From NCBI RefSeq assembly GCF_009914755.1, contig NC_060930.1: a stretch of DNA of 64,000 nucleotides. The stretch is one strand, 5' to 3'. This document shows, one piece after another, positions 62,496 to 64,000 of the stretch; the first letter of the stretch is position 1, and each line of letters starts with the position of its first letter. A program made the position numbers and the translations under genes. Under the pieces are notes generated by a model. It ran no database searches. It worked only from the letters and a program-made list of their open reading frames with translations, and was not told the origin of the DNA. Source of the stretch: the human T2T-CHM13v2.0 reference genome, Homo sapiens.

Positions 62496-63609
62496 GACAT
62501 AGAACTCTATGACCTAATATTAACCCATTACCTTCTCCCTTCCTAGCGACTTGAAAACTCATGTGTCCAATCCTTTTACCTTGTGTTTTAAATACTTTCC
62601 ATGACTAGCACTACATTAGTATTCATTTTCAACACGTTTCCATTACAAATGTAAACACTGGAGCCACAGTAGGGAATTTACTAGACTTTTGTGGGCTGCC
62701 TTAAGAATATGGTCACCAACTATTACAAAGGAAAAATATGTAACAAATTCCAAACGAGTGACTTAAATCCTAACTTTGAGGATTTAAGTTCATTTATAAG
62801 CTAAGTGCTTTGTTTGGAATATTTATACTTAAATAGTTTTATAAACAATCACAGAGTACACATTTAAATATTATGCTTTTTTTTTTTACTATGCATGAAT
62901 GATAAATTAGACCTCCCATTAGAAGGATGGTAGTGTGCTCACTGATTTCATTGACGTTGCAGTTTTCAATTTTGAGGATATTTGCTAGAAAATGATAACA
63001 AATATGTAGAAGAAAACTTTTAAATAGTATGCTACAGAAATAATTCAAATTTTAATCCATCAATAAAAATATCAGCCTGAGTTCTATACTAAATAATAAA
63101 AGCTTGGCCTATTTATAATAAAGAACAGTTATTCTTTAAGGAAAGGACATTGAGTTGGGAGTTAGGAGGAATTTCTAGTTCTTTGTCTGCCATGGGTCTG
63201 CCCATATGACCAGGGGCAAATCCAGTTTTCAAGTGGATGGTCTTTAAGATCTTATTATTCTAATACCAGTGTATCATGTAGAATGTTTTAAGGCTGCTTG
63301 TTCTGTCTTTTGTTACTTAGCACAATTATGGGGTGCTTTTACCCCCTCAAAAATATTCCTAGGCAGTCCCCATTGCCTTAGTAATCCTCAAGTTTAGTTG
63401 TGGGGGTGGTCTCCACCTCTTCGTGTCCTCTAGGACAGGATGAAATCCTAGCTGGAGAGTTCCTCCTTCAGAATGTGTTCTTCCCTGGAGCTGCTGATGC
63501 TCAAGTGATCAAGACAGGGGTCCCAACTCCAACTCTCTGGTCACAATTTCCATCCCTCTCTCTTCATAACACACACACACACACCTGTGGAGAAGACAGT
63601 ATGTCATAA

Positions 63610-63644
63610 TGCAGTCAAATGCTCTACCACTGAGTTATCCCCCC
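63610..63644 (-). pseudogene. 5'-half tRNA-Cys(GCA) retrocopy (first 35 nt, ends at the anticodon)
   Basis: Minus strand GGGGGGATAACTCAGTGGTAGAGCATTTGACTGCA against the tRNA-Cys 5' half GGGGGTATAGCTCAGTGGTAGAGCATTTGACTGCA (33/35, ungapped). Confidence 0.9.
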
Positions 63645-63647
63645 ATC

Positions 63648-63946
63648 TTTTTTTTTTTTTTTTGAGACAGAGTTTCACTTTTGTTGTCCAGGCTGGAATG
63701 CAATGGCACGATCTCGGCTCACTGCAACCTCTGCCTCCTGGGTTCAGGCCATTCTCCTGCCTCAGCTTCCCAAGCAGCTGGGATTACAGGCTCCCACTAC
63801 CATGCCCAGCTAATTTTTGTATTTTTGGTAGAGACGGGATTTCACCATGTTGATCAGGCTGGTCTTGAACTCCTGACCTCAGGTGAGCCACCTGCCTCGG
63901 CCTCCGAAAGTGCTGGGATTACTGGCGTGATCCACCGCGCCCGGCC
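63648..63946 (-). mobile_element. AluSp/Sq, sharing its TSD with the tRNA half
   Basis: Full antisense Alu; direct repeat agtatgtcataatg at 63598-63611 and 63948-63961. Confidence 0.94.
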
Positions 63947-64000
63947 TAGTATGTCATAATGATTAGAGCACAGGCTCTGAGATAGATAGCCCGCGTGCTA

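What the first reader, a model, noticed from the sequence alone, without database searches (positions are those of the whole stretch)
63598..63961. Alu-poly(A)-5' tRNA-Cys half chimera inside one target-site duplication
Seen, reading the minus strand: TSD, full AluSp/Sq, A16, GAT, GGGGGGATAACTCAGTGGTAGAGCATTTGACTGCA, TSD. The 35-mer is the first 35 nt of tRNA-Cys(GCA) (33/35) and stops exactly at the GCA anticodon. A single 14-bp direct repeat (agtatgtcataatg, 63598-63611 and 63948-63961) encloses both parts, and the Alu has no TSD of its own. The last 2 nt of the tRNA half (CA) overlap the TSD, and the target is not a TT/AAAA L1 endonuclease site. Rejoined, the target reads like the head of a MIR. 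Known: anticodon-cleaved 5' tRNA halves (angiogenin-type; 5'-tiRNA-Cys carries the terminal oligo-G) retropose as tailless retropseudogenes primed by microhomology. Classic chimeric retrocopies such as U6-L1 have the small RNA at the 5' end and the poly(A) element at the 3' end, the reverse of the order here. Inference: this was one event in which L1 ORF2p primed on the tRNA half and then jumped to an Alu poly(A). Alternatively it copied an Alu-tRNA read-through or ligated RNA cleaved at the anticodon. Either way it would be a fossil of a tRNA fragment initiating Alu insertion at a non-canonical site.
Basis: partly seen in the sequence, partly recalled or inferred. Interest (0 to 1): 0.88.

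Follow-up and report, generated by a model that had tools for sequence, protein, structure and literature searches.

The report
Alu fused to tRNA-Cys fragment retrocopy
A full Alu element and the first 35 bases of a cysteine tRNA were pasted into the human genome together as a single retrocopy, with the tRNA piece copied first, and two more insertions of the same unusual build exist elsewhere in the genome.

Summary
On the minus strand, window 63598-63961 reads: 14-nt TSD, one A, full-length Alu, A16, GAT, the first 35 nt of tRNA-Cys(GCA) (33/35), then the same 14-nt TSD. The fragment's last CA overlaps that TSD. The Alu has no TSD of its own.

The genome holds 65 matches to the tRNA-Cys 5' 35-mer: 27 full genes and 38 dispersed 5' fragments. 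Of the 38, 32 carry their own adjacent TSD, the known "tailless retropseudogene" class. Three are Alu-poly(A)-spacer-fragment units inside one TSD: this locus and two on chromosome 2.

A locus on chromosome 10 shows what two hits at one site look like: three TSD copies. The chimeras have two. No tRNA-Cys gene has an Alu tail upstream.

Best reading (about 0.72): one L1-driven event. cDNA was primed by microhomology in the anticodon loop of a tRNA-Cys or pre-tRNA-Cys. It ran to the RNA's 5' end, then jumped onto an Alu RNA's poly(A).

An angiogenin-type half is not needed, because sibling copies carry pre-tRNA leaders. Published catalogues that I could read miss this build by design. I rate it a new variant of a known kind, of moderate interest. 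The primate orthologue test could not be run.

The parts
63948..63961 (-). 5' copy of the target-site duplication (CATTATGACATACT on the minus strand)
   Evidence: 14 of 14 identical to 63598-63611
63947..63947 (-). one extra A between the TSD and the Alu 5' end
   Evidence: read directly
63664..63946 (-). full-length Alu body, 283 nt, AluS-like (subfamily not tested)
   Evidence: two Metazoa_SRP matches; aligns end to end with a consensus of 30 Alus, non-CpG divergence 17/242.
63648..63663 (-). Alu poly(A) tail, A16, internal to the insert
63645..63647 (-). 3-nt spacer GAT. It is either a pre-tRNA 5' leader remnant or untemplated bases at the template jump.
   Evidence: no tRNA-Cys gene has GAT just upstream; 8 genes differ from it at one base.
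63610..63644 (-). tRNA-Cys(GCA) positions 1-35, ending on the anticodon. The last two bases are shared with the TSD.
   Evidence: 33/35 to tRNA-Cys genes and at most 23/35 to the other tRNAs held
63598..63611 (-). 3' copy of the target-site duplication
63962..64000 (+). continuation of the old interspersed repeat (MIR by recalled consensus) that was the target. Its head begins about 63596 and runs past the window end.
   Evidence: flank read from L001; two dispersed partial matches. The family name is recalled.
63033..63584 (-). context only: annotated UST-AS2 exon. Its acceptor AG (63586-63585) lies 12 nt below the 3' TSD copy.
   Evidence: hub annotation

Best explanation
I read this as a single L1 (ORF2p) target-primed reverse transcription event that used two templates.

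1. The plus strand of the window was nicked after ...CATAATG.
2. The 3' end of that nick paired through two bases (TG with CA) with the anticodon loop of a tRNA-Cys or pre-tRNA-Cys.
3. The first 35 nt of the tRNA were copied back to its 5' end.
4. Up to three more bases were added or copied from a leader (GAT).
5. The enzyme then jumped onto the 3' end of the poly(A) tail of an Alu RNA and copied the whole Alu.
6. Second-strand cleavage 14 nt away, followed by fill-in, gave one TSD around the composite.

Shown: the anatomy, the single TSD, the recurrence, and the contrast with stand-alone copies and with a two-hit locus. Inferred: the enzyme, the order of templates, and the jump itself. Not decided: whether the tRNA was cleaved beforehand or was primed internally.
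For: (1) One perfect 14-nt TSD encloses both parts, and no other bracketing repeat exists.

(2) The genome has 65 matches to the tRNA-Cys 5' 35-mer at up to 3 mismatches: 27 full genes and 38 fragments that lose tRNA likeness in or just after the anticodon loop (35-43 nt).

(3) 32 of the 38 fragments have their own TSD within 0-8 nt of their 5' end. Three more have weak or decayed ones. The tRNA piece therefore belongs to a family that inserts on its own without a tail.

(4) In 14 of those 32, the 3' TSD starts at the CA of the anticodon, as it does here. The pooled target is T-rich before the nick and C/A then A-rich after it, which is an L1-type site.

(5) The remaining three fragments are all Alu-A(n)-spacer-fragment units in one TSD:
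- the window;
- L011, with a 16-nt TSD (15/16), a TA-repeat spacer and the fragment ending at nt 35;
- L049, with a 21-nt repeat at 90% identity, spacer GGA and the fragment running to about nt 43.
Their Alus and flanks differ.

(6) L043 shows two insertions at one site, with three copies of a 15-nt TSD. The chimeras lack the middle copy.

(7) Non-CpG divergence of the Alus (17/242, 18/242, 23/229) is in line with the mismatches of the fragments (2, 1 and 3 of 35).

(8) In the passages I read, tailless tRNA retrocopies primed by microhomology and template switching by L1 are both described in print.
Against: - No orthologous primate site could be examined, so "both parts or neither" is untested.
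- The nick site (AATG/ATTA on the primed strand) is a poor L1 endonuclease site.
- Only 2 nt of microhomology are present.
- A cDNA end of C-run plus ATC has no complementarity to poly(A), so the jump has to be homology-free.
- The same build was not found for tRNA-Ala, Lys-TTT or Lys-CTT with poly(A)-anchored exact-core patterns. Those searches are insensitive, and per Noll 2015 those tRNAs have far fewer tailless copies (4, 3 and 28 against 72 for Cys).
- Sequence alone cannot separate a template jump from copying an RNA that was ligated beforehand.
Confidence: 0.72

Rival explanations
1. One event, but the template was already a single chimeric RNA. It could have been a Pol III read-through from an Alu into a tRNA-Cys gene just downstream, or an Alu RNA ligated to a tRNA-Cys 5' part. 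Priming in the anticodon loop then happened as above.
For: It explains the single TSD and the sense-sense order equally well. RNA ligation before retroposition is one of two models offered for U6/LINE-1 chimeras in the Cell Genomics 2026 paper (passage).
Against: - None of 27 full tRNA-Cys genes has an A-run longer than 5 within 40 nt upstream.
- Two further genes, held with only 10-nt flanks, show none either.
- Poly(A)-anchored searches find only the retrocopies.
- The three chimeras have three different spacers, end points and Alus, so three separate sources would be needed.
- From my own knowledge, not tested here: the known ligase route (RtcB) joins a 3' phosphate or cyclic phosphate end to a 5'-OH end. 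An Alu 3'-OH and a tRNA 5' phosphate or triphosphate do not offer those ends.
Confidence: 0.13
2. Two independent insertions. Either an Alu landed exactly between the 5' TSD and the 5' end of an older tRNA-Cys tailless copy, or a tRNA-Cys fragment landed exactly at the junction of an older Alu's tail and its 3' TSD. In both cases the second event left no TSD of its own.
For: Alu tails and used L1 endonuclease sites are re-targeted. L043 shows a tRNA-Cys fragment and an Alu at one and the same site. L055 and L050 show fragments inserted in or near Alus.
Against: - In those real two-hit cases each insert has its own TSD. L043 has three copies, and L055 and L050 have adjacent TSDs.
- Here the second insert would need no TSD, an exact boundary hit that leaves all 14 TSD bases intact, and the same orientation. 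That would have had to happen three times in the genome.
- The only repeat that could serve the tRNA piece alone is GAT against CAT, which is 2 of 3 bases.
Confidence: 0.08
3. Repair of a chromosome break that captured loose cDNAs or DNA fragments (a tRNA-Cys cDNA and an Alu cDNA) by end joining, independent of the L1 endonuclease.
For: The site is a poor endonuclease site, and only 2 nt of microhomology are present.
Against: A clean 14-nt TSD points to staggered nicks. This matches the 14-16-nt peak for L1 and Alu TSDs given in Kojima 2010 (passage). The full-length Alu with its tail joined head-to-tail to the tRNA 5' end recurs three times, which random capture does not predict.
Confidence: 0.05

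Closest known systems
Tailless retropseudogenes of tRNAs (Schmitz et al. 2004, known to me only through citing papers; Noll et al. 2015, PMC5322556)
   Same: - The tRNA piece is 3'-truncated in a single-stranded loop.
- It has no A-tail.
- Its 3' junction shows microhomology with the target.
- Some siblings carry pre-tRNA leaders.
- tRNA-Cys is a heavy contributor, with 72 entries in Noll's supplementary table.
   Different: Here the 5' TSD is not next to the tRNA piece. It lies beyond a whole Alu with its tail. Noll's script allowed at most 20 nt between the 5' TSD and the tRNA start. Their list has no tRNA-Cys entry within several Mb of this locus, or of the two chromosome 2 loci.
Chimeric retrogenes made by L1 template switching (U6/L1, U3/L1, U6/Alu and others; Buzdin 2002/2003 as cited, Doucet et al. 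2015, PMC4476161)
   Same: Two unrelated RNAs are copied into one insert, in the same orientation, inside one TSD (passages).
   Different: In those chimeras the small RNA is the 5' part, and the polyadenylated element is the 3' part and the first template. Here the order is reversed. The tail-less small RNA is the 3' part and the first template, and the poly(A) ends up inside the insert.
tRNA-half/LINE-1 chimeric insertions (Cell Genomics 2026, PMC13174262; preprint 10.1101/2025.02.02.635956)
   Same: tRNA segments of about 1-37 nt are co-inserted with a retroelement inside one TSD, and the tRNA breakpoints lie in the anticodon loop (passages).
   Different: In their Table S3 sheet 7, all 21 tRNAs sit at the 5' side of a LINE-1. 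Sixteen are antisense and five sense (my count), and the authors explain this by twin priming. None is tRNA-Cys, none has an Alu partner, and none lies 3' of a poly(A).
3' transduction / read-through retrocopies
   Same: Extra sequence follows the element's own poly(A) inside the TSD.
   Different: No source locus with this flank exists in the genome searched, and there is no second poly(A) at the end of the insert.

Membership tests
Tailless retropseudogene (tRNA-derived) | Copy of a small RNA, 3'-truncated in a loop or other single-stranded region | tested here: met
   33/35 to tRNA-Cys nt 1-35, ending on the anticodon
Tailless retropseudogene (tRNA-derived) | No A-rich tail at the 3' end of the copy | tested here: met
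   The 35-mer runs directly into the TSD
Tailless retropseudogene (tRNA-derived) | TSDs directly flank the copy (5' TSD within 20 nt of the start, Noll 2015 criterion) | tested here: not met
   The 5' TSD lies 303 nt upstream, beyond GAT, A16, the Alu and one A
Tailless retropseudogene (tRNA-derived) | Target complementary to the last 2-18 nt of the copied RNA | tested here: met
   The CA is shared by the tRNA end and the TSD start. The same start occurs in 14 of 32 stand-alone siblings.
Tailless retropseudogene (tRNA-derived) | L1-type target site (TT/WAAAA) | tested here: not met
   The site reads AT/CATT. Siblings pooled give T-rich / C or A, then A-rich.
Template-switch chimeric retrogene (U6/L1 type) | Two unrelated RNA copies, same orientation, one TSD around both | tested here: met
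Template-switch chimeric retrogene (U6/L1 type) | Polyadenylated element at the 3' end, small RNA at the 5' end | tested here: not met
   The order is reversed and the poly(A) is internal
Template-switch chimeric retrogene (U6/L1 type) | Both parts absent together at the empty orthologous site | not testable with these tools
   No primate genomes are held
tRNA-half/LINE-1 chimera (Cell Genomics 2026) | tRNA segment of about half length | tested here: met
   nt 1-35
tRNA-half/LINE-1 chimera (Cell Genomics 2026) | Partner is LINE-1, with the tRNA at its 5' side and mostly antisense | tested here: not met
   The partner is an Alu, and the tRNA lies 3' of the tail in sense
Alu 3' transduction from a source locus | A source copy with the same downstream flank exists | tested here: not met
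   The exact 35-mer is unique. Poly(A)-anchored searches find only retrocopies. No gene has an upstream A-run.
Angiogenin-type 5' tiRNA as template | 5' end at mature G1 with no leader, 3' end in the anticodon loop | tested here: inconclusive
   The 3' end fits. GAT before G1 may or may not be a leader. The siblings L015 (6 of 6 bases matching a gene's upstream flank) and L043 (6 of 7) carry leaders.
Angiogenin-type 5' tiRNA as template | The RNA was cleaved before reverse transcription | not testable with these tools
   This needs RNA or biochemical data

The most novel reading that the evidence does not exclude
This would be a recurrent, so far uncatalogued class of reverse-order chimeric retrocopies. 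ORF2p starts on a tail-less tRNA-Cys or pre-tRNA-Cys through 2-7 nt of pairing in the anticodon loop and runs off the RNA's 5' end. It then jumps end-to-end onto the poly(A) 3' end of an Alu RNA. A full Alu is thereby installed at a site that its own tail never paired with. Three of 38 tRNA-Cys 5' fragments in this genome have this build. That would be germline evidence for homology-free template jumping onto poly(A) ends, and for a second route of Alu integration.
Probability: 0.6. Interest if true: 0.65.

Novelty: new variant of a known kind. Interest (0 to 1): 0.55.

Why it matters
- It shows, in fixed genomic fossils, that L1-driven reverse transcription which begins on a non-polyadenylated RNA can continue onto a second, polyadenylated template. 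This is the mirror image of the classic U6/L1 chimeras.
- It gives Alu a way into sites where its tail never primed.
- It exposes a blind spot in published screens. One required the 5' TSD within 20 nt of the tRNA. The other looked only at the 5' side of LINE-1.
- The stand-alone siblings also make tRNA-Cys a convenient natural series for studying where and how tail-less priming happens.

Tried and rejected
- Rfam and ARAGORN on the window see no tRNA at the 35-mer, as expected for a half.
- Poly(A)-anchored exact-core patterns found no chimeras for other tRNAs. tRNA-Ala gave 1 hit, a gene-cluster locus. tRNA-Lys-TTT and tRNA-Lys-CTT gave 0 hits each. These searches need an exact 17-18-nt core, so they would miss decayed copies. 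For tRNA-Cys they recover 2 of the 3 known chimeras.
- The 35-nt 5' patterns of Lys-TTT and Ala-TGC gave 20 hits each. I did not fetch their flanks, so the number of fragments among them is unknown.
- I could not test Arg, Gln, Glu or Gly, because no gene sequence of theirs was among the tRNAs I fetched.
- A BLAST of the target flank against the window and the loci gave one 31-nt match. A genome search gave two partial matches. That is too little to name the repeat by tool.
- Schmitz et al. 2004 is not held.
- The idea that L011 and L049 are duplicates of each other is rejected, because only the Alu and tRNA parts align.
- The idea that tRNA-to-MIR homology guided the insertion is rejected by reading the sequence. 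The tRNA piece is antisense to the MIR head, so the primer strand and the tRNA are homologous rather than complementary.

Full report
**What is in the window**

I read the minus strand of 63598-63961. The order is:

- a 14-nt repeat (63961-63948);
- one extra A (63947);
- an Alu that begins at the Alu 5' end and runs 283 nt (63946-63664);
- sixteen A (63663-63648);
- GAT (63647-63645);
- a 35-mer (63644-63610);
- the same 14-nt repeat again (63611-63598), whose first two bases, CA, are also the last two of the 35-mer.

The repeat finder reports the 14-nt pair at 100% identity. It finds no other direct repeat that brackets the Alu or the 35-mer alone. Rfam matches both Alu monomers to the SRP RNA family. 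ARAGORN calls no whole tRNA in the window.

**Identity of the 35-mer**

The window's own genome is searchable. The 35-mer itself occurs once. With up to 3 mismatches it finds 27 places.

The commonest form, taken from locus L002, differs from the window's copy at 2 of 35 positions. ARAGORN calls L002 and 25 other loci (27 genes in all) tRNA-Cys(GCA), with the anticodon at positions 33-35. So the 35-mer is tRNA-Cys nt 1-35 and stops on the last anticodon base.

Ungapped identity to other human tRNAs fetched here is much lower: Ala 23, Thr 16 and 13, Lys 14 and Arg 10 of 35.

**The tRNA-Cys 5' fragment is a family**

The consensus 35-mer at up to 3 mismatches has 65 matches in the genome and none for the reversed control. 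I fetched flanks for all of them.

- 27 continue as full tRNA-Cys.
- 38 lose all tRNA likeness at 35 to 43 nt.
- Of the 38, 32 have a TSD of their own (score 8 or more) that ends 0-8 nt before the tRNA start.
- Three more (L048, L052, L057) have weak or decayed TSDs by eye.

In 14 of the 32, the 3' TSD starts at the CA of the anticodon, exactly as in the window. The pooled target is T-rich just before the TSD (T at position -2 in 19 and at -1 in 16 of 32). It then shows C or A (28 of 32) followed by A-rich sequence (A at +4 in 27 of 32).

This is the published class of tailless retropseudogenes: 3'-truncated tRNA copies without a tail, primed by short complementarity to the target. I know Schmitz 2004 only through citing papers, because it is not held. 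I read passages of Noll 2015, Doucet 2015 and Kojima 2010. Noll's supplementary table lists 72 Cys entries, against 4 for Ala, 3 for Lys-TTT, 28 for Lys-CTT and 28 for Thr.

**The chimera recurs**

The three fragments without a TSD of their own all have one build.

- The window.
- L011 (contig 2:128766217): TSD, full Alu, an A-rich tail, a TA repeat, tRNA-Cys 1-35, TSD. The repeat is 16 nt at 15/16.
- L049 (contig 2:128791285): TSD, Alu, A11, GGA, tRNA-Cys to about nt 43, TSD. The repeat is 21 nt at 90% and partly overlaps the tRNA end.

The three Alus and all flanks differ. Only the Alu and tRNA parts align between the loci.

Two poly(A)-anchored searches with different tRNA-Cys cores find only the window, L049 and L015. 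L015's own TSD is A-rich. So I count 3 chimeras among 38 fragments at this search depth.

**Why one event and not two**

Real double hits are visible among the siblings, and they look different.

- L043 has three copies of a 15-nt TSD: copy, leader plus fragment, copy, Alu with tail, copy.
- L055 is a fragment inside an Alu with its own 11-nt TSD.
- L050 lies about 40 nt from an Alu tail with its own 14-nt TSD.

For the window, a second insertion would need to leave no TSD. It would also have to hit the boundary exactly without removing any of the 14 TSD bases, and be in the same orientation. The same would have had to happen at L011 and L049.

The divergence of the parts is compatible with one age. 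Alu non-CpG differences from a consensus of 30 Alus are 17/242, 18/242 and 23/229. The fragment mismatches are 2, 1 and 3 of 35. This check is weak.

**Why not a source locus**

None of the 27 full tRNA-Cys genes has an A-run longer than 5 in the 40 nt upstream. Two further genes, held with only 10-nt flanks, show none either. The junction occurs once in the genome. The three chimeras have three different spacers.

A lost or polymorphic source cannot be excluded. Nor can an RNA ligated before copying. From my own knowledge, the known ligation route needs end chemistries that an Alu 3'-OH and a tRNA 5' phosphate do not offer.

**Mechanism**

The geometry fixes the order of copying. The strand that carries the antisense tRNA, then ATC, then T16, then the antisense Alu is continuous from the primer ...CATAATG. 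So the tRNA was the first template and the Alu the second, entered through its tail.

Twin priming does not give this build. It would leave the Alu tail next to a TSD.

The step from the tRNA 5' end to the poly(A) is a homology-free template jump, and this step is inferred. L1 as the enzyme is also inferred, from the TSD length and from the L1-type target logo of the siblings. The window's own site, AT/CATT, is a poor match to that logo.

**Cleaved half or internal priming?**

The end point fits that idea. However:

- 27 of the 32 stand-alone copies carry 1-8 extra bases before G1.
- In L015 the six extra bases equal the upstream flank of a gene in L007. In L043, seven extra bases match six of seven upstream of the gene in L018.
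- Doucet 2015 and Noll 2015 cite Schmitz 2004 for retrocopies of unprocessed pre-tRNAs, and Noll argues for internal priming.
- L049's GGA matches the end of the AAGGA found before two stand-alone copies, L047 and L062.

The window's GAT matches no gene flank exactly. So a nuclear pre-tRNA primed in its open anticodon loop is at least as likely as a pre-cut cytoplasmic half. This is not decided.

**Comparison with what is in print**

My searches were "tailless retropseudogenes" plus tRNA (16 papers), "chimeric retrogenes" plus template switching, tRNA and Alu (13 papers), and Alu-tRNA / tRNA-Alu phrases (0 papers).

The nearest report is the Cell Genomics 2026 catalogue of LINE-1 chimeras. I read passages and Table S3 sheet 7. 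By my count, all 21 tRNA/LINE-1 chimeras have the tRNA at the 5' side of the L1, 16 antisense and 5 sense. None is tRNA-Cys, none has an Alu partner, and none lies 3' of a tail.

Noll 2015 allowed at most 20 nt between the 5' TSD and the tRNA start. Their hg19 list has no Cys entry near this locus; the nearest chr6 entries are 143.49 and 156.77 Mb. It also has none in chr2:120-135 Mb.

Subscription papers, and Schmitz 2004 itself, were not searchable. I therefore claim only that the build is absent from what I could read.

**Verdict**

The tiRNA origin is left open. The locus is one of three members of a reverse-order variant of L1 template-switch chimeras, built on the known tailless tRNA-Cys retrocopy. 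I rate it a new variant of a known kind, of moderate interest. The decisive test, primate orthologues, could not be run here.

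Noticed in passing
L043 (G000 contig 10:6211087-6211121 and flanks): There are three copies of one 15-nt TSD. The order is: copy, 7-nt leader plus tRNA-Cys fragment, copy (one A shorter, its start also readable as tRNA nt 40-45), full Alu with a long A-rich tail, copy. It looks like two insertions at the same endonuclease site.
   Followed up: partly
L011 and L049 (G000 contig 2:128766217 and 128791285): Two of the three Alu-tRNA-Cys chimeras in the genome lie about 25 kb apart on the same strand, yet they are clearly separate insertions. By my arithmetic the chance of this is about 5e-5. 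I have no explanation.
   Followed up: partly
L031, L047, L049, L062: The change T28 to G recurs in three dispersed fragments. The 5' extra bases AAGGA recur in two, and GGA appears in L049. Neither feature is seen in any of the 27 full tRNA-Cys genes examined. This points to a lost or unsampled source gene, or to a copying error.
   Followed up: no
whole genome: tRNA-Cys has many more dispersed 5' fragments than tRNA-Lys-TTT or tRNA-Ala: 38 fragments among 65 matches, against 20 matches in total for each of the other two. This agrees with 72, 3 and 4 entries in Noll 2015's table. Its anticodon loop and stem are purine-rich just 3' of the anticodon, which may suit T-rich primers (inference).
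   Followed up: partly
window 63585-63625, minus strand: The annotated UST-AS2 exon (63033-63584) has its acceptor AG at 63586-63585, 12 nt below the 3' TSD copy. The usual branch-point zone, 18-40 nt upstream, falls in the TSD and the tRNA-derived piece, which contains TTTGACT. Whether the insert supplies the branch point is untested.
   Followed up: no
window 63570-63585: A short CA/GT dinucleotide run forms the first bases of the UST-AS2 exon on the minus strand.
   Followed up: no
L055 (G000 contig 7:2653706) and L050 (contig 2:202468750): Two tRNA-Cys fragments inserted close to Alus, each with its own TSD. L055 sits in the A-rich middle linker of an Alu. L050 sits about 40 nt past an Alu tail. 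They are useful negative controls for the chimera call.
   Followed up: yes
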